From Candidatus Magasanikbacteria bacterium CG1_02_32_51 (lineage in GTDB: Bacteria; Patescibacteriota; Patescibacteriia; Magasanikbacterales; UBA922): a DNA stretch of 62,651 nucleotides. The stretch covers positions 1-62,651 of the forward strand of contig MNVC01000012.1 in NCBI GenBank assembly GCA_001871435.1, given 5' to 3'. How positions within the stretch are numbered: the first letter of the stretch is position 1; every line of letters begins with the position of its first letter. Under the pieces are notes generated by a model. The model was not told the DNA's origin. It saw only the letters and a list, made by a program, of their open reading frames with translations, and searched no databases. A program made the translations under genes and the position numbers. Positions 916 through 51,030 of the stretch are shown one piece after another.

Positions 916-1611
916 GTGATGAAAACGATGAATACGATCTTTTACTGCGCCATCTTCATGTTTGGTTGTTATCAAAGTAGGGACGAGTCTGAGGTTCAGA
1001 CCAAGAACTACTTGATCAACGTCGACATGACGAATAGCGGTGACTTCAGTGCAGTCCTCCCTGATGGCACGTTCTATAACGACATGGAGTCGTTCAATGA
1101 GAACATGGAACCGACCTACGAACAGCTCGCTGACGAAGGCACGGACATCCAGTTCGAGTTCGGCGATAACATCCAGGAGCAGCTCGACATCGATCTGGTC
1201 AACTTCATCCCGTCGCATACTGATGATTCGTCGGACTGTAATAGCAAAGACGGTCTTCAAACGATCGTGAGTCCTTTGTACATCGGAGGCGGGTATAATC
1301 TGACCACATCTTTCGGGTGGAAATATATCGCGGGCTGCATCAAGAGAAACGTCTATCGACTCGCGATTCACCTCAACAAGTACAGCTATCAGGTATTCGA
1401 CTTACATGCCGCCTTCTATAGGGAGAGCGGTAAGGTATGCTTCGGCCTGTACGAAAGCGTCAGTGGGTGGAAGTCATGCAACTGTAACCCTACCTACAGC
1501 CAGATCAAGGGCTGGGTGGTTGAGGTGGCAATCGTCGCGGGCGTCTCGGTGGGAGTGGCCACGATCATCGCCAACATCGTCACGCCACTCATCTTTATGA
1601 TGGCTATCTAG
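916..1611 (+). CDS. Hypothetical lipoprotein with a C-terminal TM anchor, in GC-rich foreign-looking cassette 1
   Basis: Lipobox-like FMFGC near the N-terminus and a hydrophobic C-terminal helix (VAIVAGVSVGVATIIANIVTPLIFMMAI). AAGGA lies 6 nt before ATG 919. G/C-ending codons contrast with the neighbours. No family recognised. Confidence 0.55.
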   Translation: MMKTMNTIFYCAIFMFGCYQSRDESEVQTKNYLINVDMTNSGDFSAVLPDGTFYNDMESFNENMEPTYEQLADEGTDIQFEFGDNIQEQLDIDLVNFIPSHTDDSSDCNSKDGLQTIVSPLYIGGGYNLTTSFGWKYIAGCIKRNVYRLAIHLNKYSYQVFDLHAAFYRESGKVCFGLYESVSGWKSCNCNPTYSQIKGWVVEVAIVAGVSVGVATIIANIVTPLIFMMAI

Positions 1612-7990: not shown

Positions 7991-8012
7991 TCCTCCCAAG
8001 GCGGACAAGTTG
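7991..8012. repeat. GC-hairpin repeat (family A core), flanked by AT-rich arms
   Basis: TCCTCCCAAGGCGGACAAGTTGG. A 12-bp inverted repeat CAAAATCCAAAT/ATTTGGATTTTG lies on either side. Confidence 0.6.
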
Positions 8013-10086: not shown

Positions 10087-10240
10087 ATTTTAAATTTCAA
10101 AGCCCAAATGACAAATCAAAACCTAATTTCAAATATCAAATTTTTATCATTTAGTAATTTGTCATTGATTCCACCCACAGCCCAAGGCGTGCACGGCAAG
10201 GCGGACAGGTTGAAATTTGGATTTATTAATTTGAAATTTA
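10087..10240. repeat. Composite palindromic element: AT-rich arms around the long family A core
   Basis: Core 10169-10212 is TTCCACCCACAGCCCAAGGCGTGCACGGCAAGGCGGACAGGTT, with a near-copy at 15767-15806. Arms: CAAATGACAAAT/ATTTGTCATTG and AATTTCAAAT/ATTTGAAATT. Confidence 0.6.
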
Positions 10241-11476: not shown

Positions 11477-11508
11477 TTCCGCCCAAGGCGAATCCGCCTT
11501 GGGCGGAA
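11477..11508. terminator. Perfect 14-bp GC palindrome (family A-derived) between convergent genes; likely bidirectional terminator
   Basis: TTCCGCCCAAGGCG aatc CGCCTTGGGCGGAA, followed by AAAA. Confidence 0.6.
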
Positions 11509-11576: not shown

Positions 11577-12827
11577 TTATGTGGCAAAAGAAAACAATTG
11601 TTGTTGTGTGTAAATTTGTTCTACATCTTCTTCGGCTATTTCACCTTCTAGCATTTGTATAAGTGTATTCCCAATATGATAACCAAGATTTACAGGTACG
11701 GCATTACCAATTTGTTTGTATTGTTGAGAGATAGAGCCTGAAAATTTCCAATCATCAGGGAATGTTTGAATTCTAGCATATTCACGTACTGTGAGAGGGC
11801 GAGTTTCTTCAGGATGACATCGTTCTGTTTGCTTTTGTGCTGGACTACATGTCAACGTAAGTGAAGGTTCCTCCCAAGAAAGTCTTCTAGCCATACCAGT
11901 TTTTCCACCACCCATGTAAAAGCTTGCCCCCATATATTTTTTTTGTAAATCTTCAGGTAAATTTCTCCAATAACCACCAGGAGGTATAAGATCTAAAATG
12001 TTTTTTTTATGTTCTGGATATTTTTGACCTTCAGATTTTGGACATTTGTGTAAAGCCTCGCGTAGAGGAATTATATAATCCTTTTCTTTAGGAAATGAAA
12101 TTGGTATATTCAAATCGTTTCTTACTCCAATGATAATTAGACGCTCTCTTTTTTGAGATACATCTAAATATTGTGATCTAAGAACTTTATATTTAACCTT
12201 GTATCCCAATTCTTCTAAAACAGAGACCATTGTTTTTAGAGTTCTTCCACCATCGTGATTTAATAATCCCTTTACATTTTCTCCGACTGCAATTTTTGGT
12301 TTTACTTCTTTTACACATCTAGCAAACTCAAAAAATAAAGTTCCTCGTATATCTTCGAATCCCATCTTTTTACCAGCATAGGAAAAAGTTTGACATGGAA
12401 AACCTCCTTGCACAATATCAGCTTGTCCTTCCTCAAATTTTAGATTTCGTACGTCGTCTTCAACTACGTTCCAATCTGGTCTGTTTGTCCTTAATGTTTC
12501 ACAGGCGTGTTTATCATATTCGTTTAATAGGATATGCTCAATACCTGCATTTTCCATTCCTATGGCCGTTCCCCCCGCACCTGCAAATAACTCAATTGCT
12601 GTATATGATGATTTCTTTTTATTTTTTAAAATTTTGAATTTGTTTGTTTTGCTACCAGATTTATTTTGGATTCTTTTAATTTCATCTAGTAAAAACATTC
12701 TGTCATTTCTATCATTTCGAAAAGATTTAATCAAACCGGATTTGTCCCAGCGTCTGATAGTATCAATAGATATGTTTAGTAGGAGGGCAGTCTCGCCAGC
12801 TGTAAAATATTTTTTTGTACTTTTCAT
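11577..12827 (-). CDS. DNA (cytosine-5)-methyltransferase with an N-terminal MerR/excisionase-type HTH
   Basis: Motif I FAGAGG, motif IV GGFPCQTFS, motif VI ENV, motif VIII QKRERLIIIG, motif X GNAVPV. N-terminal FTAGETALLLNISIDTIRRWDKSGLI. Confidence 0.92.
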   Translation of the reverse strand: MKSTKKYFTAGETALLLNISIDTIRRWDKSGLIKSFRNDRNDRMFLLDEIKRIQNKSGSKTNKFKILKNKKKSSYTAIELFAGAGGTAIGMENAGIEHILLNEYDKHACETLRTNRPDWNVVEDDVRNLKFEEGQADIVQGGFPCQTFSYAGKKMGFEDIRGTLFFEFARCVKEVKPKIAVGENVKGLLNHDGGRTLKTMVSVLEELGYKVKYKVLRSQYLDVSQKRERLIIIGVRNDLNIPISFPKEKDYIIPLREALHKCPKSEGQKYPEHKKNILDLIPPGGYWRNLPEDLQKKYMGASFYMGGGKTGMARRLSWEEPSLTLTCSPAQKQTERCHPEETRPLTVREYARIQTFPDDWKFSGSISQQYKQIGNAVPVNLGYHIGNTLIQMLEGEIAEEDVEQIYTQQQLFSFAT

Positions 12828-12890
12828 ATAAAAAATGATAGTGGATTAAGTTATCATTATTATATCATATAACCATTGCCTATGTGAAGG

Positions 12891-13592
12891 TTATTCTGTG
12901 GAAAAAGCCATTTTGAATAATTTGTGATACTCTTTGCTTTCTTGTTTATTCAATTTATAATTGTGTTTGTCAGCAATAACCTGGGGGATAATGTCAAATA
13001 ACTCAAGAAGTGCATTTTTTCTTCCAGTTGTCATTTCATAAAAACTAACGCCATCAATTACTCTTATTTTGTTTTTTGCTGGACGTCTTTTTCCTTTTTC
13101 AGATGGTGTAAATGGTTTATCATATTTTTTTCTTCTTTTTGAGATTACTTCGACATAATAGCCAGTATAACCAGTATATTCATAATTTTTGAGAGTATTT
13201 TTTATGTCGTCATATAACTTTACTAAATGGTTTCCTTTTGTGGTGTTGTATTTATTTTTGACTTCAGCAATTATTTTCATTTTTTTATTTATGACATCTA
13301 AACCACCTCCTGTGCCAAGGTTTTTCCAACCAGAAATTGAACCTAAAATATCTTGGTGAAAATCACCTATAGAATTTTGCATTGTTTTTTGAGTTTGTCT
13401 AGCTTTTTCTTGTTCCATCCAATCTGTATAAGGTATAGATTTTGTAATTCCATGGAACAAAGCAGAAAATGGGTCTATTACATTTTTATGTATGTTGACT
13501 TCTGCATCCTGTTCAGCTTTTTCAATTACATTTATAACTTTACTAACAGCAGAAATTAAATTTTTGTCAGAAATAAATTTTAGGTAAGGCAT
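12891..13592 (-). CDS. Candidate type II restriction endonuclease (PD-(D/E)xK) partner of the m5C methyltransferase
   Basis: Directly upstream and co-oriented with the methyltransferase. GGGLDV...IIAEVKNKYNT fits D...ExK. A resemblance to the Eco47II/Sau96I family is recollection only and unverified. Confidence 0.5.
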   Translation of the reverse strand: MPYLKFISDKNLISAVSKVINVIEKAEQDAEVNIHKNVIDPFSALFHGITKSIPYTDWMEQEKARQTQKTMQNSIGDFHQDILGSISGWKNLGTGGGLDVINKKMKIIAEVKNKYNTTKGNHLVKLYDDIKNTLKNYEYTGYTGYYVEVISKRRKKYDKPFTPSEKGKRRPAKNKIRVIDGVSFYEMTTGRKNALLELFDIIPQVIADKHNYKLNKQESKEYHKLFKMAFSTE

Positions 13593-14532: not shown

Positions 14533-14546
14533 AAATTTTCTAGAAG

Positions 14547-14638
14547 GGTTCCCTCCTTGAGGAGGGGCAGGGAGGTGTTACCGTTTTGTAAGTAATTACG
14601 GTGGTAACACCCCCTTTATCCCCCTCGAGGGGGAAACC
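14547..14638. repeat. Family B GC-rich multi-hairpin element, copy 1
   Basis: CCCTCC/GGAGGG, GGGAGGTGTTACCG/CGGTGGTAACACCCCC and CCCCCTCGAGGGGG. Related copy at 28653-28767. Confidence 0.65.
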
Positions 14639-14690
14639 AAAAAATTATCTCAATTTATTATAAACTCATAAAAAATAATAGTTTGTCATT

Positions 14691-15766: not shown

Positions 15767-15806
15767 TTCCACCCACAGCCCCAGGCGTGCTTAGCAAGGC
15801 GGACTA
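15767..15806. repeat. Long family A core, copy 2
   Basis: TTCCACCCACAGCCCCAGGCGTGCTTAGCAAGGCGGACTAG, near-identical to 10169-10212. Confidence 0.65.
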
Positions 15807-15881: not shown

Positions 15882-16130
15882 ATGAAAAAAGAAGCCAAGG
15901 AAGAATTTTTTGGCAACATACATGGTACCACCTCTGTTGGTGAAAGAGGACAATTAGTTATACCAAAGAAATTGCGCGAAAAATTAAAAATTAAAAAAGG
16001 TGACAATTTTGTAGTTGTCGAAAAGCATGGTATGGTAATTCTTATGCCAACCAAAGTCATGACTGATTTTATTTCCAAATTGAATCTTCAATTGAACAAT
16101 ATTAATCCGCCCAAGGCGGACAAGGTTTAA
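15882..16130 (+). CDS. AbrB/MazE/SpoVT-family DNA-binding protein (orphan antitoxin-like)
   Basis: GERGQLVIPKKLREKLKIKKGDNFVV swapped-hairpin motif. The last 9 codons and the stop lie inside the family A repeat. Confidence 0.7.
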   Translation: MKKEAKEEFFGNIHGTTSVGERGQLVIPKKLREKLKIKKGDNFVVVEKHGMVILMPTKVMTDFISKLNLQLNNINPPKADKV

Positions 16131-19544: not shown

Positions 19545-19680
19545 TTTAGTAATTTTGAATTTCGAATTTTAAAACAATTTTTCAATTATTTAATTTTAAA
19601 TTAATTTTTTTGTAAATTTAAAATTGTTTCCAACCAAGTCGGACAAGTTAAAATTTAAAATTTCTAAATTTAAAATTCGT
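19542..19680. repeat. Family E AT-rich element pair (inverted) around a degenerate family A core
   Basis: Left arm TAATTTAGTAATTTTGAATTTCGAATTTTAAAACAATTT, core TTCCAACCAAGTCGGACAAGTT, right arm AAAATTTAAAATTTCTAAATTTAAAATT. Confidence 0.6.
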
Positions 19681-26624: not shown

Positions 26625-28598
26625 ATGGGAAAAATATTAGGAATAGATCTAGGAACAACCAACAGTTGTATGGCTATCATCGAAGGTGGTCAGCCAAAAG
26701 TACTAGAAAACAAAGAAGGAAATAGAACTACACCATCGGTAGTAGCAATTTCCAAAACAGGTGAGCGTCTTGTTGGTCAACTTGCCAAGCGTCAAGCTGT
26801 AACCAATCCAAGTAATACTCTTTATTCTATCAAGCGTCTGATTGGGCGTCGTTTTGAGGATAAAGAAGTACAAGATACTATCAAACATTCACCTTATACT
26901 ATTGTCAAAGATGGTGATAAATTGAAAATAAAAATGGGTGACAAAGAATATACTCCACCAGAAATTTCAGCCATGATTTTGCAAAAATTAAAAGCAGATG
27001 CTGAAGAAAAACTTGGTGAAAAAATAACTGAAGCTGTAATTACAGTTCCTGCTTATTTTGATGATTCACAAAGACAAGCTACTATTGCTGCTGGTGAAAT
27101 AGCTGGATTAAAAGTTGCTCGTATTATTAATGAGCCTACAGCAGCTGCTTTTGCTTATGGTTTTGACAAAAAAGGTGATCAACAAATTGTAGTTTATGAT
27201 TTGGGTGGTGGTACTTTTGATGTCTCTGTTTTGGAAATTTCTCATGATGGCGCACAATCTACAGTAGAAGTAAAAGCTACTAACGGTGATACACATCTTG
27301 GTGGTGATGACTTTGATAAAAAAATTATGGAATGGATTCTAGAAGAATTCAAAAAAACAGAAGGCATTAATCTTGGTAATGATCCATTATCATTACAACG
27401 TGTCAGAGACGCTGCTGAAAAAATAAAAATTGAATTATCAAGTACTGTAGATGGCGAAGTCAATGAACCATTTATTACTTCTGGTGTTGAAGGTCCAAAA
27501 CATTTAAGTTTGAAACTTAGTCGTGCTAGATTGGAAGAACTTGTGTCTGATCTTGTTGAAAGAACTATGGTTCCTCTTAGAAAAGCTCTTGAAGATGCTG
27601 GAATCAAAAAAGAAGATATTAATGAAGTAGTGCTAGTTGGTGGTATGACTCGTATGCCACTTGTACAACAAAGTGTTGAAAAATTTTTTGGTAAAAAACC
27701 ACATGTTGGTGTCAATCCAGACGAAGTGGTGGCTGTAGGTGCTGCTATTCAAGCTGGTCAACTTCAAGGTGACTTGGGCAAAGAAATTTTACTTCTTGAT
27801 GTCACTCCACTTTCTCTTGGTCTTGAAACTCTTGGTGGTGTATGTACAAAGCTTATAGATAGAAATACCACTATTCCAACAAGTAAAACTCAAGTATTTT
27901 CTACAGCAGCTGATAGTCAACCAAGCGTAGAAATTCATGTTTTGCAAGGTGAACGTGAAATGGCAGTTGATAACAAAGCATTGGGAACATTTATGCTTGA
28001 TGGAATTCCACCAGCTCCTCGTGGTATACCACAAATTGAAGTAAAATTTGATATTGATGCCAATGGAGTATTGCAAGTATCAGCCAAAGACAAAGGTACT
28101 GGTAAAGAACAATCAATTCGTATTGAAGCTTCCTCTGGACTTTCTGATGCAGATATAGAAAAAATGAAAAAAGACGCTGAAGCTCATGCTGATGAAGACA
28201 AGAAAAAACGTGAAATGATTGATATCAAAAATACAGCTGATACTATGATTTATACTACAGAAAAAATGATGAAAGATATTATTGAAAAGAAAATAGAAGT
28301 TACAGATGAAGAAAAGAAAAAAGTAGAGGAAGGTTTAACAAAATTAAAAGAAGTAAAAGAAAAAGATAATATTGAAGAAATTAAAAAAGTTGCTGATGAA
28401 TTGTCTACTGCAGCTCAAGCTATTGGTATGAAAATGTATCAACAAGAATCAGCCTCCGCTAAGGCTTCGGCTGACAAGCAAGGTGCTGGTACTGAGGAAG
28501 TTAAGACTGAAGAAAAGTCCGCCCAAGGCGGATCCGACTCGGTCGGAAAAGATGAAGGTGAATCTGTAGAAGGTGAAGTGGTTGATGATAAAAAATAA
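26625..28598 (+). CDS. dnaK: Molecular chaperone DnaK (Hsp70)
   Basis: [27 protein letters not shown] and so on. The C-terminal tail carries GC-hairpin repeat sequence. Confidence 0.98.
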
Positions 28599-28652: not shown

Positions 28653-28767
28653 TTTCCCTCCTCGAGAGCCTGTGCCGTACTTGATACGGTAAGGGATTAA
28701 GGGAGGTGTAACCGTCTTAGTAATATAAACATGGTAACACCATCTTGACCTCTCTCGAGGGAGGAAC
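28653..28767. repeat. Family B GC-rich multi-hairpin element, copy 2
   Basis: TTTCCCTCCTCGAG...GGGAGGTGTAACCGT...GGTAACACC...CTCTCGAGGGAGGAA. Shares termini and inner stem with 14547-14638. Confidence 0.65.
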
Positions 28768-28904: not shown

Positions 28905-29545
28905 GAAGGACATGAAGATTTTAGGCTGGTACTTTAGTACCAGTAAAAAATGTAGTTTATGTAGTCCCAGAGGGACGATTGATGAAAATATGTCAGATAC
29001 TTTTTCAAAATTATTTTTTCATGTTGTTTTCAGTACCAAGGAAAGGATAAAATTTCTTAAACCAGATTTGAGAGTTAGACTCTTTGAATATATGGGTGGA
29101 ATAGCTAAAAATAATAATTTTCAAACAGTATTTACAAATGGTACAGATGACCATTTACACACATTATTATTATTGAAGCCAAATATAGCTGTATCAAAAG
29201 CTGTCCAGCTTTTGAAAGGTGGTTCTTCAAAATGGATACATGATAATTTTTTAGATTTGAAAATGTTTACTTGGTAGAGTGGTTTTGGTGCTTTTTCTGT
29301 TAGTCATTCCCAGGTTGAAAAAGTTATAGAATATATTTCAAAGCAGGAAGAACATCATAAAAAAATGGATTTTAAAGAGGAATACAAAAAACTATTGAAA
29401 ATAAATAATATAGATTATAAAGAACAATATTTATTTTAAACATGTAGTTCATTCGTCCCTCTGGGACTAAATATTATTATAATTTATATACGGGTACTGA
29501 AGTACCCGCCTAAATACTTATTGTCCCTCTGGGACTTGTTTATAG
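28905..29545 (+). mobile_element. IS200/IS605-superfamily Y1 (RAYT-like) unit with REP-like flanking hairpins
   Basis: 5' flank: CTGGTAC-ttta-GTACCAG and GTCCC-aga-GGGAC. 3' flank: GTCCC-tct-GGGAC (twice) and CGGGTAC-tgaa-GTACCCG, in inverted order around the HUH gene. Confidence 0.65.
28990..29439 (+). pseudogene. REP-associated tyrosine transposase (RAYT / IS200-like TnpA), inactivated
   Basis: FFHVVFSTKER, HUH motif DDHLHTLLL, KGGSSKWI. In-frame TAG at 29275-29277 falls where W-Q-x-G-Y-GAFS is expected (reads W-stop-S-G-F-GAFSVS). The frame continues to ...QEEHHKK...TAA 29437-29439. Confidence 0.7.
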
Positions 29546-29560
29546 GAAATGTAAGTATTT

Positions 29561-29603
29561 CAAAATTGTTTTAAAATTTAAAATTACTAAATTTAAAATT
29601 TTT
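29561..29603 (+). repeat. Family E AT-rich element directly upstream of dnaJ
   Basis: CAAAATTGTTTTAAAATTTAAAATTACTAAATTTAAAATTTTT. Near-identical to 44813-44851 and 47504-47545. Confidence 0.7.
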
Positions 29604-29609
29604 ATAATT

Positions 29610-30731
29610 ATGTCCAAAGATTATTACAAAATTCTTGGTGTAGACAAAGGCACTACTAAAGAAGAAATCAAAAAATCTTTTCGAAAATTAGCTCACGAAT
29701 ATCATCCAGACAAAAAGACTGGCAACGAAGATAAATTCAAAGAGATAAATGAAGCTTACCAAGTTTTGGGTGATGATAACAAACGCAAACAATATGATCA
29801 ATATGGAGCTGATTTTGAACAACAAGGTGGCTTTGGCGGTGGTATGAATTGGAATGACTTTATGAATAAAGCAAGGAGTGGTGACTTTGAAAATTTTTCT
29901 TCCCAAGGCGGATCAACTTGGAGCGAAGATGGAATTGATTTGGGAGATATCTTTGGTGACATTTTTGGTTTTGGTGGTGGAAGAAGTAGAGGAAGATCTC
30001 GTACTATGAGAGGAAATGATATTCAAGTTAGTGTGGAGTTGGAATTTCGTGAAGCAATTTTTGGTGTAGAAAAAGAAATAAGATTAACAAAAAATAATGT
30101 TTGTAGTGTCTGTAGTGGTAGTGGTGCTGAATCTGGAGCTGGTACAGAAACTTGTAGTGATTGTCGTGGTCAAGGACAAATAAAGAGAGTTCAACAAACA
30201 ATTCTTGGGGCAATGCAAAGTGTTGTGACTTGTCAGCGTTGTCAGGGTAGTGGTCAAATTCCAAAGAAAGTTTGTAAACATTGTAGTGGTAAAGGTGTAG
30301 TTCATAGTGATTCCAAATATAAAGTAAAGATTCCAGCGGGAATTTCAGATGGTGAAATGATTCGTTTGTCTGAAAAAGGGGAGAGTGCTGGAGTTGGTAG
30401 TAATCCTGGAGATCTCTATGTCCGTGTTCATGTAAAGTCTGAGAATGGTTTTGAAAGACAGGGTTTTGATATATTTACTGCTATTAACATTTCTTATCCA
30501 CAAGCTGTGTTAGGTGATAAAGTAGAGATAAATACGCTAGAAGGTAAAAAAAATTTGATTATACCAGAAGGTACCATCTCAGGACAAAAATTTAAACTAA
30601 AAGGTCTTGGTGTACCAAGACTACAGCGTAGTGGCAAAGGTGATCAATATGTGACAGTGATAATTGATGTCCCAAAGAAAATAAGTAAAAAAGTTAAAAA
30701 GATATTGGAAGAATTAAAAGGGGAATTGTAA
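29610..30731 (+). CDS. dnaJ: Co-chaperone DnaJ
   Basis: J-domain HPD (EYHPDK), G/F region, four CxxCxGxG zinc motifs. Confidence 0.96.
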   Translation: MSKDYYKILGVDKGTTKEEIKKSFRKLAHEYHPDKKTGNEDKFKEINEAYQVLGDDNKRKQYDQYGADFEQQGGFGGGMNWNDFMNKARSGDFENFSSQGGSTWSEDGIDLGDIFGDIFGFGGGRSRGRSRTMRGNDIQVSVELEFREAIFGVEKEIRLTKNNVCSVCSGSGAESGAGTETCSDCRGQGQIKRVQQTILGAMQSVVTCQRCQGSGQIPKKVCKHCSGKGVVHSDSKYKVKIPAGISDGEMIRLSEKGESAGVGSNPGDLYVRVHVKSENGFERQGFDIFTAINISYPQAVLGDKVEINTLEGKKNLIIPEGTISGQKFKLKGLGVPRLQRSGKGDQYVTVIIDVPKKISKKVKKILEELKGEL

Positions 30732-33543: not shown

Positions 33544-33745
33544 ATCCTGAGCCGACGAAGTACGGCGTGAGGATCTTTCTCAAATAAAAACGTTTTTTAT
33601 TTATTTAATCCGCCCAAGGCGGACAAGGTTTAATTCCTCGTAGCTTGCTGCGAAATAATCCAATTGATACCTCGTAGCAAGCTGACGAGGTAGTTCATTT
33701 TTTTAGACGTGGTTATTCGTTTTCAATATATATATCTATTTATGT
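33544..33745. repeat. Family C element, copy 3, with a family A long-form element (33607-33708) nested inside
   Basis: ATCCTGAGCCGACGAAG...GAGGATCTTTCTCAAATAAAAACGTTTTTTATTTATTTAAT, then the A element, then TTTTAGACGTGGTTATTCGTTTTCAATATATATAT. In copy 1 the two halves are contiguous. Confidence 0.7.
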
Positions 33746-40464: not shown

Positions 40465-41820
40465 ATGAAGATACACTTTAGTGGAGCAGATGGTGAAGTT
40501 ACAGGTTCTTGTCATCTTTTGGATACTGGCAAAATGAAAATTCTTATTGATTGTGGAATGTTTCAAGGTGGAGATTTCAATGAAGGACTTAATCATGATG
40601 TCTTTCCTTTTGATCCAAAGGAAATTGATGTACTCTTGGTAACTCATGCTCATTTGGATCATATTGGACGTATTCCAAAACTTGTCAAAGATGGTTTTGG
40701 TGGCAAAATTTATGCTATCAAAGGTACAAAAGACTTGATGCCACTTATTTGGTATGATGCCTACAATATTATGGCTTATGATAATCGTAAATTTGGTTAT
40801 CCTGTGTTATTTGACGAAGTAGATGTGGCTGAAGCTCAAGCTCTTTGTCATGGACTAAATTATCATGAGGAATTGGATCTTGGTAATGGTGTCAAAGCTA
40901 TTTGGAAAGATGCTGGCCATATTTTTGGTTCAGCTTTTATTGAAATTACTGTAGGTGACAAGAAATTTGTTTTTTCCGGAGATATTGGTAATGAAAATGT
41001 TCCAATTTTGAAAAATACTGAAAGTATTAGTCCAGATGTGGACTATGTTATTTGTGAATCTACTTATGGTAATCGTATCCATGAAGGTACTGATGTTAGA
41101 AAGAATATTATATCTAATTTAATAATAAATAGTGTCAAAAGAGGAGGTACAATTATGGTGCCAGCTTTTTCTCTTGAACGTACACAAGAATTTCTTTATG
41201 AATTGAACGAAATCAGTGAATATGATCATAATTTGCCAAATGTGCCTATTTTTCTTGATAGTCCTTTAGCAATTGATGCTACCAAAGTTTACAAAAAATA
41301 TCCAGAATATTATGATGAAGAAGCCCAAAAGTTGCATCTAGATGGTGATGATTTTCTCAATTTTCCTCAGCTTCAAGTGACTTATGGTAAAAGAGATTCA
41401 CAAAAAATAAATCATACTCCAGGTCCAAAAATGGTGATTGCTGGTGCTGGTATGATGAATGGTGGTAGAATATTGCATCATGCTCTAAGATATTTGTCTG
41501 ATCCCAATTCTACTCTTATTATTGTTGGTTACCAGGCTTATGGTACTTTGGGTCGAAAAATTTATGAAGGTCAAAAACATGTCAAAGTAATGGGAGAAGA
41601 TGTTGAGGTTAGGTGTACTATCAAAGCTATTGGTGCTTTGTCTGCTCATGGTGATCAAATTAAATTATTAAAATGGTTGGGTACTGACAAAAAAAGATTA
41701 AAAAAAGTATTTTGTGTACATGGTGAAGATGACGCTCTGACAGTTTTTGCTGGTAAAATAAAAAGCGATTTGAAAATAGAGGCTTATATACCAAAGTATG
41801 GTGAAGTGGTGGAAGTATAA
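40465..41820 (+). CDS. MBL-fold beta-CASP family ribonuclease (RNase J/CPSF-like)
   Basis: HAHLDHIG motif 2, beta-CASP motifs, C-terminal SAHGD and VHGE. Confidence 0.8.
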   Translation: MKIHFSGADGEVTGSCHLLDTGKMKILIDCGMFQGGDFNEGLNHDVFPFDPKEIDVLLVTHAHLDHIGRIPKLVKDGFGGKIYAIKGTKDLMPLIWYDAYNIMAYDNRKFGYPVLFDEVDVAEAQALCHGLNYHEELDLGNGVKAIWKDAGHIFGSAFIEITVGDKKFVFSGDIGNENVPILKNTESISPDVDYVICESTYGNRIHEGTDVRKNIISNLIINSVKRGGTIMVPAFSLERTQEFLYELNEISEYDHNLPNVPIFLDSPLAIDATKVYKKYPEYYDEEAQKLHLDGDDFLNFPQLQVTYGKRDSQKINHTPGPKMVIAGAGMMNGGRILHHALRYLSDPNSTLIIVGYQAYGTLGRKIYEGQKHVKVMGEDVEVRCTIKAIGALSAHGDQIKLLKWLGTDKKRLKKVFCVHGEDDALTVFAGKIKSDLKIEAYIPKYGEVVEV

Positions 41821-41830
41821 TTTTTTTGAA

Positions 41831-44236
41831 ATGGATAAACATAAATTCAAATTAAAATCCAAATATAAACCAGCAGGATCTCAGCCTGAAGCTATAAAAG
41901 GTTTAGTTTTTGGTTTACAAAAAGATTATAAGAATCAAACCTTACTTGGTGTGACTGGCTCAGGTAAGACTTTTACAGTAGCTAATGTAATTGAAAAAGT
42001 TCAAATGCCAACATTAGTGATTGCTCACAATAAGACTCTTGCAGCTCAACTTTGCAATGAGTTTCGGGAATTCTTCCCAGATAATGCTGTGGAATATTTT
42101 GTGTCATATTATGATTACTATCAGCCTGAAGCATATATGCCAGGCAGTGATACTTATATTGAAAAAGAAGCCCAGATAAATGAAGAAATAGATAGGCTCC
42201 GTCATGCTTGTACACAAGCTTTGATTACTCGTAGTGACGTGATTGTAGTAGCTTCTGTTTCGGCAATTTACAATCTTGGTAATCCATTAGATTATGAAAA
42301 AACAGTTTTACATCTTGAAGTCGGACAAAATTTGGATAGACGAGGGATGCTTGAAAAACTTGTTTCTATGCAATTTGATAGAAATAATACAGAGTTGAAG
42401 AGAGGACAATTCCGGATGCGTGGGCAAGTCTTTGAAATAATGCCAGTCAATGAAGAATTGATTTATCGTTTTGAAATTAGTGATAAAATTGATTTGATAG
42501 AAATAGTAGATCCTATTACAAGAAATATTTTGAGTAGTTCAACAAGAGGTTCTTCGACTTCCACTTCGCTTCGCTCAGGGTCGCTCAGGACAAACGTTCT
42601 TTCAGACGTTTGGTTTTTCCCAGCTAAGCATTATGTAATAAATGAAAATGAACAGTTGCAAGCTTTTTCAACTATTGAAAATGAACTAAAAGATAGGTTA
42701 GAATTTTTTAAAAAACATAGTAAGGCTCTAGAATATGAAAGATTGAAAAGAAAAGTAAAATATGATTTGGAAATGATCAAAGAAGTTGGTTATTGTAGTG
42801 GTATAGAAAATTATTCTCGCCATTTTGATGGACGTAAAGAAGGTGAACCGGCTTTTACTTTGATTGATTATTTCAAATATGCTGCCGGGACCTCACCAGC
42901 TTCGTCTGGGTCGGAGTCGACCTCTCCTAATAGGAGAGGTGCTGACGTTGTCAAAAACAAGGGATTTCTTACCATCATAGATGAGTCACACGTTACTTTG
43001 CCACAAATTCGTGGTATGTATTTTGGAGATAAGGCTCGTAAAGAAAATTTGATAGAACATGGCTTTAGATTACCAAGTGCTTTGGATAATCGTCCACTTA
43101 TTTTTGATGAATTTATTAATAGAACCCAAAAAACTATTTTTGTGTCTGCTACTCCCGCAGAATATGAAATTAAAAATAGTGGTCAAGTCGTGGAACAAAT
43201 TGTTCGTCCAACTGGACTAATTGATCCAGAAATTATTATTTGTTCAGTGACTGGTGGCAAAGTTCTCCCCCTAGTAGGGGGAGTTACCCTCCCAAGGCGG
43301 GTCCGCCTAGGGTGGAGAGGGGGTCTGCAAGCAAATGAAAACGTTGTAACTCAAGATGGACCCCTCCCAACCTCCCCTAATAGGGGAGGAGTTTCTAGGT
43401 CACAAGTTGAGGATGTCATGGAGCGTATCCAAGTTAGAGTGAAGCAAGGTGAGCGTACTTTGGTTACAACACTAACAAAACGCATGGCAGAAGATTTGAG
43501 TGACTATCTAAAAGAACAAAAAATAAAAGTTGAATATCTGCATAGTGATATCAAGACAATTGAAAGAATTGAAATTATAACCAAACTTCGCAAAGGTGAA
43601 ATAGATGTAATTGTTGGTGTCAATTTGCTTCGTGAAGGTCTGGACATTCCAGAAGTATCTCTCGTGGCAATTCTTGATGCTGACAAAGAGGGTTTTTTAC
43701 GTAATGAGACAAGTCTAGTCCAGACTATTGGTCGGGCCGCACGTAATGTCAATGGTCAAGTAGTAATGTATGCTGATGAAATGACGAAGTCTATTGATAG
43801 GGCTGTTTTTGAGACCCAGAGACGTCGTGAGATTCAGTTGGCTTATAATAAAAAACATAATATTACTCCAAAAACTATTGAAAAAAATATCCGTAATATT
43901 TTGGAAGAATTTGGTCTCACTAGTACAAGTATCAAAAATACCAAAACAAAAAGTAACAGACGTGATAGGAGTATTTTGAATCTAGATATTATGGGAGATG
44001 CTAGACCTCTCAAAGAAATAATTAAAGAAAAAGAATTCAAGATGCGTGAAGCTGCAACAAAATTGGAATTTGAATTAGCTGCTTTATTGCGTGATGAAGT
44101 TAGAGAATTAAAAGCTAGAGAGAAGACGGGGGATAGTCGGAAGTCTGGGAAGTCCATTCCACCAAAGGTGGACTCGTCTACGCGAGAAAGTCGAAAGTCA
44201 CAAAAGCTAAAAAGTAAAATTGTTAAATATTTATAA
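41831..44236 (+). CDS. uvrB: Excinuclease ABC subunit B, with four GC-rich repeat-derived insertions
   Basis: GVTGSGKTFT, DESHVT.PQ, helicase motifs, UVR domain (AA..LEFE.AA.LRDE). About 130 aa longer than typical UvrB. Confidence 0.96.
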   Translation: MDKHKFKLKSKYKPAGSQPEAIKGLVFGLQKDYKNQTLLGVTGSGKTFTVANVIEKVQMPTLVIAHNKTLAAQLCNEFREFFPDNAVEYFVSYYDYYQPEAYMPGSDTYIEKEAQINEEIDRLRHACTQALITRSDVIVVASVSAIYNLGNPLDYEKTVLHLEVGQNLDRRGMLEKLVSMQFDRNNTELKRGQFRMRGQVFEIMPVNEELIYRFEISDKIDLIEIVDPITRNILSSSTRGSSTSTSLRSGSLRTNVLSDVWFFPAKHYVINENEQLQAFSTIENELKDRLEFFKKHSKALEYERLKRKVKYDLEMIKEVGYCSGIENYSRHFDGRKEGEPAFTLIDYFKYAAGTSPASSGSESTSPNRRGADVVKNKGFLTIIDESHVTLPQIRGMYFGDKARKENLIEHGFRLPSALDNRPLIFDEFINRTQKTIFVSATPAEYEIKNSGQVVEQIVRPTGLIDPEIIICSVTGGKVLPLVGGVTLPRRVRLGWRGGLQANENVVTQDGPLPTSPNRGGVSRSQVEDVMERIQVRVKQGERTLVTTLTKRMAEDLSDYLKEQKIKVEYLHSDIKTIERIEIITKLRKGEIDVIVGVNLLREGLDIPEVSLVAILDADKEGFLRNETSLVQTIGRAARNVNGQVVMYADEMTKSIDRAVFETQRRREIQLAYNKKHNITPKTIEKNIRNILEEFGLTSTSIKNTKTKSNRRDRSILNLDIMGDARPLKEIIKEKEFKMREAATKLEFELAALLRDEVRELKAREKTGDSRKSGKSIPPKVDSSTRESRKSQKLKSKIVKYL

Positions 44237-44752: not shown

Positions 44753-44851
44753 CTAATTTAGGAATTTTGAATTTTAAAATTTTGAAAAAATAATTTGAAA
44801 TTAAAACATTAAGAAATTGTTTTAAAATTTAAAATTACTAAATTAAAAATT
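44753..44851. repeat. Family E AT-rich element pair (inverted)
   Basis: CTAATTTAGGAATTTTGAATTTTAAAATTTTG ... GAAATTGTTTTAAAATTTAAAATTACTAAATTAAAAATT. Confidence 0.65.
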
Positions 44852-47503: not shown

Positions 47504-47545
47504 ATAATTGTTTTAAAATTTAAAATTTCTAAATTAAAAATTTTT
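47504..47545 (+). repeat. Family E AT-rich element
   Basis: AATAATTGTTTTAAAATTTAAAATTTCTAAATTAAAAATTTTT. Confidence 0.7.
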
Positions 47546-48708: not shown

Positions 48709-51030
48709 ATGTCCTATAATTTATTAGACAAAGCTGACTTCGAAAAATTCAAGAAAAATAATCCAAGTAATTTTCAATACGATTTTGAAGGCGGAAGTTA
48801 TTTGAAATTACAAGATTTGGAATTGAATGGTTTGTCAGGAATTGATGAAGAAAAGCTAAATAAAATTGCTACACTCATGCGTGAACTTATTTTTGCCACA
48901 GTAGAAGGTTCTCGTTCGGGTCATCCTGGTGGCTCTAGTGCCAAAGTAGAGCAGTTTTTGGCGATGACTCTTGGTGGAGCAATGGCTTTTGATTTATTAG
49001 ATCCAAAAAATAATTGTCGTGATAGAGTGGTTTGGTCAGCTGGGCATTGTACACCGGGATTGTATAGTGGGTTGGCTTTGTTTTATGAGAGTTTGCAAAA
49101 AAAAGGAATAAAATTTGATGTCAAAAAATTGCATGCAATTTTAGGCAAAGATTTGAGTAAGTTCAGAAAAGGTGGGGGACTTCCAGGTCATGCTGAAAGT
49201 TATACACCTCTTAGTGATATTTCTACAGGTCCTTCTGGACATGGTTTTTCGGCTGCTGGTGGATTAGCTATCACCCATAAGTCGTCTGGTACAGGTAGTA
49301 AAGTTTGGGTTTTTATGGGTGATGCCGAGAGTGAAGAAGGTATGACTTATGAGGCTCGCAATATTTTACATACTGTTGGCGCTGATAATATGATAGTATC
49401 ACTTGATTACAATCATTTTGGGATTGATGGAGATATAGATGAAGTATTGTCAAATAAATATATCAACAATTGGTTAGGTTTGGGCTGGAACGTAATTGAA
49501 ATAAATGGACATAATATTTTGGAATGTGTTTATGCTTATCGTTTGACTTCGGAAAAAGTTTTTGCTAATGGTAATCCGACTGTAGTTATTGCTCATACTT
49601 GGAAAGGAAAGTCTTATGGTAGTCTAGAAAATTCCAATAAATCTCATGGTTCTCAGGTTAAGCACGATGAATATATAGAGATTGAAAATAAATTAAACGC
49701 AAATAATAAAGTATCAATTCCAGGTAAAGAAGGAGATATTTTATCAGATATTGAAAGTATTTTATCTAATCTGGATAATTCTTTGGCAACTTATATTGTA
49801 GGTAGACTAAAGGTGGCTAGCAAAAAAATTCCAAATGAACAAAAAGTTTTGGTACAAATGAAAAAGACTTTGAAATTTGTCAAAGGCGGATCTACGAGAA
49901 AATTTAAGAGTGTTACGGAAATTGAAAGACCAAGTAAATTACCAGCAGAATTAGTTTTTGTACCAGAGCAAAAAGTTGCTACAAGAAAGTCTAGTCAAGT
50001 ATTTTTTGAATGGTTGATGAAAGAAAGTGCGTTTTTTTGGGCTGGGGCTGGGGATTTGTCAGAATCAGTCAAGACTGACAAGGCCGAAAATGTGTATGGT
50101 GTTATAAATAGAAAAAATCCTTATGGGCGTGGGATTCGTTATGGTATTGCTGAACAAAATATGGGGATGATGGGCGCTGGTATGACACTAGATAGATTAC
50201 CTGGGAATTTTGCACCAGTTTCTGTCATAGGAACTTATGCCGCATTTACTTCTATGATGTGCAATGGTATTCGTGTGGCTGTCATAAATAATCATCTTTA
50301 TCCTGAACATAAAGGATTTTTTATAGTACTTGCTAGTCATGATGGTCCAGAAGTTGGAGAAGATGGACCGACTCATCAAGGACTTTATTGGATGAGTATG
50401 TATAGTGCCTATCCGGGTATAAAAGTTTACAAGCCAACTGATGCCAATGAAACAATTGAAATGCTTTTTTATGCCATGAAAATTGGTGAACCAATTATTT
50501 TGTCTGTTTCTCGTCCTGATGTACTAGTACTCAAACGTGGTAAGAATGCTTGTTGTGGACAATTCGTCCCACAAGCAAAAGAAGCTGTACAAGGTGCTTA
50601 TATTTTCAAAGATTACAAAAATAATGGTAATAATAAAATGTGTGTGGCAGTTTCTGGCGCAATTGTTTTGAATAATTTGTTGCAAATATTACCAGACTTA
50701 GAAAAAGAAAAAATAGATATCAAAGTTGTGGTAGTGACTTCACCAGAATTGTTTGCAGAATTCAAAAAGAAAAACAAGAAAAAAGCAGATAGTATTTTTT
50801 CTAAAGAAGATAGAAAAGTAGGAGTAACTCTTCATGCTGGTTGGAAAGGTTTTTTGCGTGATTTTGTTGATAATGATTTTTATTCCGCCAAAGGCGGATC
50901 CGCCTCGGGCGGAGAAGAACGATCTATTGGTCTAGAAACATATTTGGCAAGTGGCAGTGTGGATGAAGTCTATGAAATGGCGAAATTGACATCTTTGGAT
51001 ATTAAGAAGAAAATTTTAGAAATAAAATAG
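48709..51030 (+). CDS. tkt: Transketolase (long form), with a repeat-derived insertion near the C-terminus
   Basis: SGHPGGS, GPSGHG, GDAESEEG (TPP-binding GDG-like), EDGPTHQ. Confidence 0.9.
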   Translation: MSYNLLDKADFEKFKKNNPSNFQYDFEGGSYLKLQDLELNGLSGIDEEKLNKIATLMRELIFATVEGSRSGHPGGSSAKVEQFLAMTLGGAMAFDLLDPKNNCRDRVVWSAGHCTPGLYSGLALFYESLQKKGIKFDVKKLHAILGKDLSKFRKGGGLPGHAESYTPLSDISTGPSGHGFSAAGGLAITHKSSGTGSKVWVFMGDAESEEGMTYEARNILHTVGADNMIVSLDYNHFGIDGDIDEVLSNKYINNWLGLGWNVIEINGHNILECVYAYRLTSEKVFANGNPTVVIAHTWKGKSYGSLENSNKSHGSQVKHDEYIEIENKLNANNKVSIPGKEGDILSDIESILSNLDNSLATYIVGRLKVASKKIPNEQKVLVQMKKTLKFVKGGSTRKFKSVTEIERPSKLPAELVFVPEQKVATRKSSQVFFEWLMKESAFFWAGAGDLSESVKTDKAENVYGVINRKNPYGRGIRYGIAEQNMGMMGAGMTLDRLPGNFAPVSVIGTYAAFTSMMCNGIRVAVINNHLYPEHKGFFIVLASHDGPEVGEDGPTHQGLYWMSMYSAYPGIKVYKPTDANETIEMLFYAMKIGEPIILSVSRPDVLVLKRGKNACCGQFVPQAKEAVQGAYIFKDYKNNGNNKMCVAVSGAIVLNNLLQILPDLEKEKIDIKVVVVTSPELFAEFKKKNKKKADSIFSKEDRKVGVTLHAGWKGFLRDFVDNDFYSAKGGSASGGEERSIGLETYLASGSVDEVYEMAKLTSLDIKKKILEIK

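What the first reader, a model, noticed from the sequence alone, without database searches (positions are those of the whole stretch)
28449..28548. Repeat-family hairpins translated in frame in the DnaK C-terminal tail
The tail segment encoding [38 protein letters not shown] contains three GC hairpins: CAGCC...GGCTG, TCCGCC-CAA-GGCGGA and TCCGAC-tc-GGTCGGA. The middle one is base-identical to the intergenic family A core. This looks like selfish palindromic DNA that inserted into a coding region and is tolerated in the disordered tail. The precedent is the Rickettsia palindromic elements (Ogata et al. 2000, Science).
Basis: partly seen in the sequence, partly recalled or inferred. Interest (0 to 1): 0.7.

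Follow-up and report, generated by a model that had tools for sequence, protein, structure and literature searches.

The report
Tiny hairpin DNA inserted in dnaK
A 30-base pair of GC-rich hairpins from a dispersed repeat family sits in frame in the disordered tail of the DnaK chaperone of a Magasanikbacteria (CPR) genome, and near-identical 30-base double hairpins occur in many essential genes of uncultivated bacteria from several phyla, almost always read as Ser-Ala-x-Gly-Gly twice.

Summary

- **The insert.** dnaK (26625..28598) carries a 30-nt double hairpin at 28518-28547, TCCGCC-CAA-GGCGGA + TCCGAC-TCG-GTCGGA, translated as [10 protein letters not shown].
- **It is not chance.** The 15-mer core has 10 copies in the window against 0.02 expected.
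- **It is an indel.** The closest DnaK ortholog (92% identical) lacks exactly these 30 nt. Four separate DnaK clades carry a nearly identical copy at the same site, while the surrounding tail DNA has diverged.
- **Other copies in this window.** The transketolase has a comparable doublet that is absent from all 119 homologs examined. Decayed copies lie in uvrB and dnaJ. Intergenic singlets show reciprocal presence/absence against a relative.
- **Wider distribution.** A scan of one genome per species found at least 120 loci and stopped at its limit. About half are CPR; the rest include Omnitrophota, other PVC phyla and Ignavibacteria. Hosts include rpoB, rpoC, dnaG, topA, mfd and uvrB.
- **Frame bias.** In ORFs of 250 aa or more, 52 of 59 doublets are in the one frame that gives SAxGGSAxGG. 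This argues that they are translated.
- **The first hairpin.** It belongs to a second dispersed family whose stem covaries between copies.
- **What remains inferred.** The insert leaves no target duplication and its absence is precise, which fits a hairpin-dependent single-strand (HUH-type) mechanism. The mobilising enzyme is not identified.
- **Literature.** I found no description of this family in the papers I could search.

The parts
26625..28598 (+). dnaK coding sequence (657 aa), the host gene. The HSP70 Pfam match ends at aa 606, and the inserts lie in the tail beyond it.
   Evidence: ORF list; Pfam HSP70 4-606, E = 1e-249; closest homologs are Candidatus Magasanikbacteria DnaK.
28518..28532 (+). 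Unit 1 of the double hairpin, TCCGCC-CAA-GGCGGA (codons S A Q G G). It is identical to the intergenic 'family A' core.
28533..28547 (+). Unit 2 of the double hairpin, TCCGAC-TCG-GTCGGA (codons S D S V G). With unit 1 it forms the 30-nt indel.
   Evidence: The 30 nt are absent from L001 and L006 and present in L002, L003, L004 and L005.
28449..28478 (+). Hairpin-1 element, TCAGCC-[TCCGCTAAGGCTTC]-GGCTGA-CAAG (codons [10 protein letters not shown]). It belongs to a second dispersed family with a conserved 14-nt loop and a covarying outer stem.
   Evidence: copies in an rpoC and another ORF of other Patescibacteria; 94% of cells paired, 3 of 6 pairs compensatory.
50884..50913 (+). Double hairpin TCCGCC-AAA-GGCGGA + TCCGCC-TCG-GGCGGA, in frame in transketolase (SAKGGSASGG, aa 726-735).
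   Evidence: Unique among the window protein's 120-sequence homolog set, which includes one 88% identical.
11478..11507 (.). Intergenic double hairpin between convergent genes. It can also form one 14-bp hairpin.
16106..16124 (+). Singlet (15-nt hairpin + CAAG). It supplies the last codons and the stop of an AbrB/MazE-like ORF, and forms a 71-nt repeat with the copy at 33605.
33609..33627 (+). Singlet (hairpin + CAAG), intergenic.
19629..19647 (+). Singlet variant TCCAACCAAGTCGGA-CAAG, inserted in the AT-rich promoter-like repeat upstream of an ABC transporter gene. The orthologous site in L001 is empty.
7991..8009 (+). Singlet variant TCCTCCCAAGGCGGA-CAAG, upstream of an EamA transporter gene.
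43287..43316 (+). Decayed double hairpin in frame 1 (LPRRVRLGW) inside a 47-aa insertion of uvrB. It is flanked by other in-frame hairpins at 43265-43283 and 43371-43389.
29898..29927 (+). Probable decayed double hairpin in the G/F region of dnaJ (SSQGGSTWSE). It is absent from six orthologs.
28964..29535 (+). IS200-type Y1 (HUH) transposase element between dnaK and dnaJ. The CDS is 28990-29439 with an in-frame TAG at 29275-29277. It is flanked by GTCCC-NNN-GGGAC hairpins. It is a candidate enzyme class only and is not shown to act on the doublets.

Best explanation
The 30 nt at 28518-28547 are a copy of a very small, non-autonomous palindromic repeat. The repeat consists of two abutting, mutually inverted 15-nt hairpins with consensus (T)TT-TCCGCC-RRA-GGCGGA-TCCGCC-TYY-GGCGGA-AA(A).

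This copy was inserted into the dnaK tail without a target duplication. It is read through by the ribosome as [10 protein letters not shown]. It persists because it lies in the disordered linker between the HSP70 lid and the conserved C-terminal EGEVVDDKK motif, and because it is in the only reading frame that yields a small flexible Ser/Ala/Gly peptide.

Hairpin 1 (28449-28478) is an older copy of a related but distinct hairpin family.

Shown: repeat-family membership, indel status, recurrence in other genes, absence of a target duplication, and the frame bias.

Inferred: that spread is by hairpin-dependent single-strand cut-and-paste or copy, supplied in trans by an HUH/Y1-type enzyme of the IS200/IS605 kind (or an unknown enzyme), with a preference for T-rich 5' flanks.
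For: Family membership:
- The core has 10 copies in the window against 0.02 expected.
- There are 12 perfect GC-rich 6-3-6 hairpins against 0.7 expected.

Indel status:
- The 30 nt are precisely absent from the closest orthologs L001 and L006, and present at the identical site in L002, L003, L004 and L005.
- On a 120-sequence DnaK tree, four carrier clades each have a sister that lacks the insert.

Not ordinary coding sequence:
- Insert third-codon positions are identical at 8-10 of 10 between carriers whose gene-wide synonymous identity is 45-66%. L002 and L004 match at 30 of 30 nt.
- P(two perfect hairpins | peptide, codon usage) = 1.5e-7.

Dispersal:
- The same subfamily 30-mer occurs in CysRS, LeuRS and a U32-like ORF.
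- The transketolase doublet is unique among 120 homologs.
- Further copies lie in uvrB and dnaJ.
- At least 120 loci carry the pattern in the species-representative genomes.

Translation:
- 52 of 59 doublets in ORFs of 250 aa or more are in frame 0, although all three frames are open.
- The conserved DnaK C-terminal motif stays in frame after the insert.

No target duplication, site preference:
- The empty site reads AAAG|AAAGAT and the filled site AAAG|30 nt|AAAGAT.
- Singlets show reciprocal presence/absence at AAATTGTT^TTAAAATTT in the window and L001.
- Flank consensus: T at -1 in 101 of 122 copies, A at +32 in 97 of 122.

Candidate enzyme class:
- An IS200-family Y1 transposase with its own 3-nt-loop hairpins sits 390 nt downstream of dnaK, here and in L006.
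Against: - No enzyme is linked to the doublets. The neighbouring Y1 gene is flanked by different hairpins (GTCCC-NNN-GGGAC), carries a premature TAG in this window, and no Y1 gene lies in any of the other fetched loci, which include the 120 stretches of up to 8 kb that carry a doublet.
- The flanks are palindromic (TT...AA). They may therefore be part of the element rather than a target.
- The same variant second unit (TCCGAC-TCG-GTCGGA) at the same dnaK site in four clades could instead reflect short-patch recombination between lineages, or an old insert held by structural constraint with several precise losses.
- Translation is inferred from frame statistics only. No expression data are available.
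- The record titles of some non-CPR MAGs may be unreliable.
Confidence: 0.75

Rival explanations
1. The insert is ancestral and functional. The double hairpin is an old part of the dnaK tail, kept nearly invariant by selection on a DNA or RNA structure such as an antisense terminator, an mRNA stabiliser or a protein-binding site, and it was lost precisely in most lineages.
For: - The insert is much more conserved than synonymous sites of the gene.
- On the minus strand, unit 1 followed by CTTTTCTT scores as terminator-like.
- All four clades share the same unusual second unit.
Against: - It needs many independent exact 30-nt deletions across a tree in which only 6 of 120 sequences carry the insert.
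- The flanking direct repeats (AAAG or GAAAAG) are 34 nt apart. Slippage between them would remove 34 nt and shift the frame (read).
- The same 30-mer occurs in unrelated genes.
- A sister doublet is unique to one transketolase among 120.
Confidence: 0.1
2. The hairpins are a signal spread by recombination, for example a DNA-uptake-like or protein-recognition motif. Biased uptake or gene conversion, rather than transposition, would move filled alleles between related lineages.
For: - The same site is occupied in different clades.
- The motif occurs as inverted pairs between convergent genes, as uptake sequences do (my knowledge of Neisseria DUS and Haemophilus USS).
- The singlets sit inside a dispersed AT-rich repeat that could itself support gene conversion.
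Against: - The flanks of each carrier resemble its own non-carrier sister, so any converted tract would be barely longer than the insert.
- The same motif is found across many phyla, whereas uptake sequences are lineage-specific.
- New 30-nt insertions occur in conserved enzyme cores with no homologous filled template known.
Confidence: 0.08
3. The insert is present in the DNA but is not part of the protein. It would be removed from the mRNA or bypassed by the ribosome, as the byp elements in Magnusiomyces mitochondria are.
For: Stable adjacent hairpins could support bypassing or processing. No expression data exist.
Against: - Removal or bypass would impose no reading-frame constraint, yet 88% of copies in long ORFs are in one frame.
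- The length is always 30 nt and the copies contain no stop codons.
Confidence: 0.04
4. The resemblance is chance or protein-level convergence. The tail would simply need a Gly/Ser-rich linker, and the similarity to intergenic repeats would be coincidental. Alternatively, the segment is an assembly artefact.
For: DnaK tails are variable and rich in small residues.
Against: - P = 1.5e-7 for two perfect hairpins given the peptide.
- The exact 15-mer recurs in intergenic DNA.
- An independent metagenome contig (L133) has the identical tail.
- Carriers come from many studies, including contigs of 0.7-1.6 Mb from the MFD-labelled MAGs.
Confidence: 0.02

Closest known systems
Rickettsia palindromic elements (RPE; Ogata et al. 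2000, as summarised in PMC3733652)
   Same: Palindromic repeats inserted in frame into genes that remain functional. They are tolerated as extra peptide segments and are also found in intergenic DNA.
   Different: - RPEs are about 100-150 nt and restricted to Rickettsia. According to PMC3733652 they end in a CGTC tag.
- The elements here are 15, 19 or 30 nt, carry no CGTC or GTAG, have a fixed 6-3-6 geometry, and occur in many phyla.
REP / REPIN elements with RAYT transposases
   Same: Short GC-rich hairpins, often as inverted pairs (the REPIN arrangement). They are thought to move through a Y1 HUH enzyme acting on single-stranded hairpins. REPs inside genes have been reported (PMC3733652).
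   Different: - There is no GTAG tag.
- Most copies are intragenic, at least 58% in ORFs of 150 aa or more.
- The units abut with no spacer.
- The only Y1 gene nearby scores as IS200-family and not as RAYT (71 bits against 25), and it is flanked by other hairpins.
IS200/IS605-derived miniature elements (PATE-like)
   Same: Hairpin ends, no target duplication, precise presence/absence, and insertion next to a short preferred sequence.
   Different: No guide or cleavage-site anatomy has been demonstrated. The two hairpins are inverted relative to each other rather than direct. At 30 nt the element is far below known examples.
Mitochondrial GC clusters and double-hairpin elements (yeast, Allomyces; PMC4478555) and sponge repetitive hairpin elements (PMC2800124)
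   Same: Short GC-rich hairpin repeats that spread in an AT-rich genome. They sometimes lie inside coding regions, and their mobilising mechanism is unknown.
   Different: Those elements live in organelle genomes and have unrelated sequences. The strict single-frame SAxGG read-out and the wide host range across bacteria are specific to the elements here.

Membership tests
REP/REPIN-RAYT | Conserved GTAG (or CGTC) tetranucleotide at one end of the palindrome | tested here: not met
   Neither the consensus of 122 copies nor its flanks contain GTAG, CTAC, CGTC or GACG. The definition is taken from PMC3733652.
REP/REPIN-RAYT | Inverted pairs of hairpin units that can fold into one longer hairpin | tested here: met
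   The loops of units 1 and 2 are roughly complementary (RRA / TYY). The intergenic copy at 11477-11508 forms a 14-bp stem.
REP/REPIN-RAYT | A cognate RAYT gene flanked by the same repeats | tested here: not met
   The only Y1 gene is of IS200 type (NCBIfam 71 bits against a cut-off of 55; the RAYT model scores 25 against 80). It is flanked by GTCCC-NNN-GGGAC. No Y1 gene was found in any of the other fetched loci, which include the 120 doublet loci.
REP/REPIN-RAYT | Predominantly extragenic location | tested here: not met
   92 of 124 doublets lie in ORFs of 100 aa or more, and 72 of 124 in ORFs of 150 aa or more.
Rickettsia palindromic elements | In-frame insertion into genes that stay open | tested here: met
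   dnaK, transketolase, uvrB and dnaJ in the window. Frame 0 in 52 of 59 long ORFs.
Rickettsia palindromic elements | Length of about 100-150 nt and a CGTC end tag | tested here: not met
   The indel is exactly 30 nt and has no CGTC.
MITE | Terminal inverted repeats plus a target-site duplication, 70-300 bp | tested here: not met
   Comparison of filled and empty sites shows no duplication. The size is 19-30 nt.
IS200/IS605-type single-strand transposition (mechanism, not membership) | Hairpin ends, no target duplication, precise excision, insertion 3' of a short specific sequence | tested here: inconclusive
   Hairpins, lack of duplication and precise absence are met. A T-rich 5' flank is seen in 83% of copies. 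However, the flank is mirrored on the 3' side, and no enzyme-element link was found.
DNA uptake sequences | Lineage-specific over-represented motif recognised by the competence machinery | not testable with these tools
   The cross-phylum distribution argues against it. Uptake bias cannot be measured here.

The most novel reading that the evidence does not exclude
The dnaK insert may be one copy of an undescribed class of ultra-short mobile DNA. The class would comprise a 15-nt 6-3-6 hairpin, a 19-nt singlet with a CAAG tail, and a 30-nt inverted doublet. It would insert without a target duplication at preferred sites. It would have colonised the coding sequences of essential genes (rpoB, rpoC, dnaG, topA, mfd, uvrB, dnaK, dnaJ, aminoacyl-tRNA synthetases) across CPR, Omnitrophota, other PVC phyla and further phyla of uncultivated bacteria. 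Selection would keep only the frame that reads SAxGGSAxGG. If so, it would be the smallest transposable unit known and a recurrent source of linker-like peptides in otherwise streamlined genomes.
Probability: 0.45. Interest if true: 0.85.

Novelty: new variant of a known kind. Interest (0 to 1): 0.72.

Why it matters
- **A different size range and host range.** In-frame palindromic repeats are known from Rickettsia and a few other bacteria. Here the unit is only 30 nt. It recurs at the same site in separate lineages and sits in the most conserved genes of the cell. In the genome scan, the only hit in a cultured organism looks like chance; every other hit was in a genome assembled from a metagenome.
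- **Genome evolution.** If the elements are mobile, even very small symbiont-like genomes carry active selfish DNA that reshapes essential proteins.
- **A practical marker.** The peptide SAxGGSAxGG would flag such insertions in protein alignments and in phylogenies built from marker genes.
- **A tractable problem.** How such short hairpins are cut and pasted could be tested with 30-nt oligonucleotides.

Tried and rejected
- **Known RNA genes.** Rfam at gathering scores and ARAGORN found nothing in the window, so no known RNA family explains the hairpins.
- **RNA stability.** The 121-nt tail folded as RNA is no more stable than shuffles. Only the doublet itself stands out.
- **Transketolase structure.** A PDB sequence search with the transketolase C-terminal part found nothing. 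The indel was shown with 120 homologs instead.
- **Nearby transposase.** A tblastn search with the Y1 transposase against all fetched loci found only L006.
- **Tandem arrays.** I looked for arrays of three or more units, as replication slippage would produce. None were found; only singlets and doublets occur.
- **Loss by slippage.** Slippage between flanking direct repeats as the route of loss was rejected, because the repeats are 34 nt apart, not 30.
- **Strain-level polymorphism.** The 90%-identity clusters of the DnaK and transketolase proteins showed no strain-level presence/absence variation.
- **Phage carriage.** The viral contig scan gave only 2 hits, so there is no sign that phages carry the elements.
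- **Literature.** Seven searches, by sequence, by peptide and by keywords, found no description of this family. Absence from that library is not proof of novelty.
- **P0044-type lid insert.** The DNA of the insert PSADSGQ showed no clear hairpin and I did not pursue it.
Full report
**Setting.** The window is 32.7% G+C. Its DnaK is closest to proteins named Candidatus Magasanikbacteria (Patescibacteria/CPR), with relatives from 92% down to 75% identity. dnaK occupies 26625..28598. It lies in the usual hrcA-grpE-hsp20-dnaK-dnaJ neighbourhood, which is syntenic with the related contigs L001-L003, L006 and L127-L129.

**Observation.**
- The two 3' hairpins are adjacent 15-mers with 6-bp stems and 3-nt loops: TCCGCC-CAA-GGCGGA at 28518-28532 and TCCGAC-TCG-GTCGGA at 28533-28547.
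- The first 15-mer is base-identical to intergenic copies at 11493(-), 16106 and 33609.
- With up to two mismatches there are 10 copies in the window, against 0.02 expected.
- Perfect GC-rich 6-3-6 hairpins number 12, against 0.7 expected when 200-nt local composition is preserved.
- As single-stranded DNA the 30-mer folds into two hairpins (z = -3.5).
- The local G+C reaches 56% in a gene that averages about 35%.
- GC3 is 0.70 in the insert and 0.16 in the gene. The chance that synonymous codon choice for [10 protein letters not shown] would give two perfect hairpins is 1.5e-7.

**Indel test.** In a nucleotide alignment of dnaK 3' ends, the 30 nt are precisely absent from the closest relative L001 (92% protein identity) and from L006. 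They are present at the identical position in L002 (80%), L003 (79%), and L004 and L005 (87%).
- The tail DNA upstream of the insert is only 33-43% identical between carriers. The insert itself is 27-30 of 30 identical.
- Its third-codon positions are identical at 8-10 of 10 positions. Gene-wide synonymous positions agree at 45-66%.
- On a neighbour-joining tree of 120 DnaKs, built without the lid C-terminal part and the tail, the insert occurs in four separate clades: P0001; P0005 and P0019; P0039 and P0040; P0020. Each clade has a sister that reads ...EEK-KD... with no gap-filling residues.
- A second doublet, S[AT]QGGSASGG, sits in the helical lid of P0005, P0019 and the unrelated P0114. 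It also follows GAAGAAAAG and precedes AAG.

**Other copies in the window.**
- *Transketolase* (48709..51030) has TCCGCC-AAA-GGCGGA + TCCGCC-TCG-GGCGGA at 50884-50913, read as SAKGGSASGG. It splits the conserved DNDFY|EERSIGLETYL. None of the other 119 homologs has it, including one that is 88% identical.
- *UvrB* (41798..44236) has three insertions relative to solved UvrB structures, at aa 243-262, 361-387 and 487-533. The last two coincide with GC hairpins. One of these is a decayed doublet read in frame 1 (LPRRVRLGW), and two are copies of another hairpin read as TSPNR(R/G)G.
- *DnaJ* has a lineage-specific segment, SSQGGSTWSE, in its G/F region that resembles a decayed doublet.
- *Intergenic copies.* A doublet lies between convergent genes at 11478-11507. 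Singlets followed by CAAG lie at 7991, 16106, 19629 and 33609.
- *Singlet polymorphism.* The 19-nt singlet is reciprocally present or absent at orthologous sites. It is filled upstream of dnaJ in L001 and empty in the window. It is filled upstream of the ABC transporter gene in the window (19629) and empty in L001. The position is always AAATTGTT^TTAAAATTT, inside an AT-rich promoter-like repeat.

**Beyond the window.**
- The exact dnaK-type 30-mer (unit 2 = TCCGAC-TYG-GTCGGA) was found in seven metagenome contigs. Four are dnaK. One is a cysteinyl-tRNA synthetase, one a leucyl-tRNA synthetase and one a U32-like peptidase, judging by the flanking conserved motifs I recognised.
- By record title, about 59 stretches are CPR, 11 Omnitrophota, 13 other PVC phyla, 12 MAGs labelled 'uncultured Gammaproteobacteria', and 4 Ignavibacteria or Bacteroidota. 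The rest are miscellaneous.
- The single cultured isolate, Chitiniphilus (68% G+C), has a non-palindromic match that looks like chance.
- Hosts that I could recognise from the translations include DnaG, topoisomerase I, UvrB, Mfd (two copies), RpoB, RpoC, DnaJ and glutamate synthase. These identifications were made by eye and not by a profile search.

**Anatomy.**
- The consensus of 122 copies is tTt-TCCGCC-(A/G)(A/G)A-GGCGGA-TCCGCC-T(C/T)(C/T)-GGCGGA-aAa. T is at -1 in 101 of 122 copies and A at +32 in 97 of 122.
- The two units are inverted relative to each other. The 30-mer is therefore itself nearly a palindrome, and both strands encode S-A-x-G-G in frame 0.
- The other two frames are also open. 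They give RRRRIRLRRK and PPxADPPxAE.
- Even so, 52 of 59 doublets in ORFs of 250 aa or more are in frame 0 (chi-square p about 5e-18). This is the strongest available argument that the inserts are translated and filtered by selection on the protein.
- Comparison of filled and empty sites shows no target duplication.
- No arrays longer than two units were seen.

**Hairpin 1.** The 30 nt at 28449-28478 are TCAGCC-[TCCGCTAAGGCTTC]-GGCTGA-CAAG, read as [10 protein letters not shown].
- They are shared with the closest relative, so they are not a recent indel.
- The same 14-nt loop and CAAG tail, with a different but complementary outer stem (CCCTCC/GGAGGG), occur in an rpoC and in another ORF of other Patescibacteria. 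Two more dnaK lineages carry it with 5 of 6 stem pairs.
- Over six sequences, 94% of cells pair and three of six pairs show compensatory double changes. One of 500 shuffles reaches the observed covariation score.
- The sample is small. I read this as a second, related hairpin family with the architecture stem - loop - stem - CAAG, like the singlets.

**Mechanism.**
- *Shown:* the segment is a member of a dispersed family, it is an indel, it recurs in unrelated genes, it lacks a target duplication, and it shows a strong reading-frame filter.
- *Inferred:* movement goes through single-stranded hairpin DNA by an HUH/Y1-type enzyme. Such enzymes excise and insert precisely, without duplications, next to short preferred sequences (established knowledge of IS200/IS605 and of REP/RAYT; PMC3733652).
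- *A candidate of that class.* An IS200-family Y1 transposase gene lies 390 nt downstream of dnaK (CDS 28990-29439). It is flanked by GTCCC-NNN-GGGAC hairpins. The same element is at the same place in L006 and is about 95% identical over the transposase coding part of the alignment (86% over the whole 869-nt alignment). The window copy has CAG changed to TAG upstream of the catalytic tyrosine.
- *What is missing.* The hairpins of that element differ from the doublets, and no Y1 gene was found near other doublets. The enzyme therefore remains unidentified.
- *Recurrence at one site.* The same variant at the same dnaK site in four clades fits either a sequence-specific target (GAAGAAAAR^AAR, on the other strand ATCTT^) or very short-patch recombination. 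I cannot separate these two.

**Comparison with known systems.**
- The behaviour matches Rickettsia palindromic elements and intragenic REPs, which are in-frame and tolerated.
- The doublet architecture matches REPINs.
- The setting, GC hairpins in an AT-rich genome, matches mitochondrial GC clusters and double-hairpin elements.
- Membership of the REP/RAYT, RPE and MITE families fails on defining features: no GTAG or CGTC tag, no flanked RAYT, mostly intragenic location, 30 nt in length, and no target duplication.
- Seven literature searches found no description of this element.

**Caveats.**
- All carriers apart from the probable chance hit in Chitiniphilus are metagenome assemblies, and some taxon labels may be wrong.
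- The pattern scan fixed the stems, so the family's true diversity and copy numbers are unknown.
- The gain-versus-loss argument rests on a distance tree.
- Translation is inferred, not observed.

**Verdict.** The element is best described as a new, very small variant of the in-frame palindromic repeat phenomenon, with an unexpectedly wide host range.

Noticed in passing
window 28964-29535 (CDS 28990-29439; TAG at 29275-29277); L006 12331-12777: An IS200-family Y1 transposase element lies between dnaK and dnaJ, flanked by GTCCC-NNN-GGGAC and GGTAC-NNNN-GTACC hairpins. The same element is at the same place in L006; its transposase is 98% identical in protein, while the two DnaK proteins are 87% identical. 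The window copy has CAG changed to TAG before the catalytic Tyr. The DUF3467 gene found here in relatives is missing.
   Followed up: partly
window 55369-58230: The leucyl-tRNA synthetase has a NUDIX domain embedded at aa 383-509. In related contigs, NUDIX is fused to GrpE (L002, L006, L127, L128).
   Followed up: no
window 41798-44236: UvrB carries three in-frame insertions relative to solved structures (aa 243-262, 361-387, 487-533). Two contain copies of another hairpin, (A)CCTCYCCT-AAT-AGGRGAGG(T), read as TSPNR(R/G)G.
   Followed up: partly
window 28655-28765 and 14542-14642: An inverted-repeat element of about 100-110 nt (TTCCCTCCTCGAGAG ... CTCTCGAGGGAGGAA, with an internal GGAGGTGTAACCG ... 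GGTAACACC) lies just downstream of dnaK. A related copy lies at 14542-14642. Neither has an Rfam match.
   Followed up: no
window 19648-19677, 29564-29600, 44815-44851, 47506-47542: A dispersed AT-rich motif, AATTGTT-TTAAAATTTAAAATTNCTAAATTNAAAATT, lies directly upstream of several genes and looks promoter-like. It is the recurrent insertion site of the 19-nt singlets.
   Followed up: partly
window 10169-10206 and 15767-15804: A two-copy 38-nt repeat, TTCCACCCACAGCCC(A/C)AGGCGTGC...GCAAGGCGGAC. It has a TCCACC...GGCGGA outer stem enclosing an inner hairpin, and may be a long-loop relative of the singlets.
   Followed up: no
window 11577-13592 (- strand): A type II restriction-modification pair: a C-5 cytosine methyltransferase with a MerR-like N-terminus, and an Eco47II-family endonuclease.
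   Followed up: no
window 916-1611: An ORF with no Pfam match contains stretches of unusually high G+C (1111-1160, 1499-1592) for this genome. It may be foreign DNA.
   Followed up: no
L005 3058-3095: In this contig the dnaK tail doublet has one extra G (CAAGGGCGGA). This shifts the frame and truncates DnaK (STQGRIRLGRKG*). It is either a sequencing error or a real frameshift inside the hairpin.
   Followed up: no
L012 4579-4775, L012 6400-6596, L065 (reverse) around 7325: In a Kiritimatiellae MAG the doublet is the 5' end of a three-copy repeat of about 195 nt. The repeat also contains a GTCATTCCGAGCG...CGTTCAGGATGAC palindrome.
   Followed up: partly
L001 12038, L004 2622, L005 3184, L006 12002: A hairpin TCCCCT-(A/G)GT-AGGGGA lies just downstream of the dnaK stop codon in four relatives. 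Similar units are in frame inside the window's uvrB (43267, 43373).
   Followed up: no
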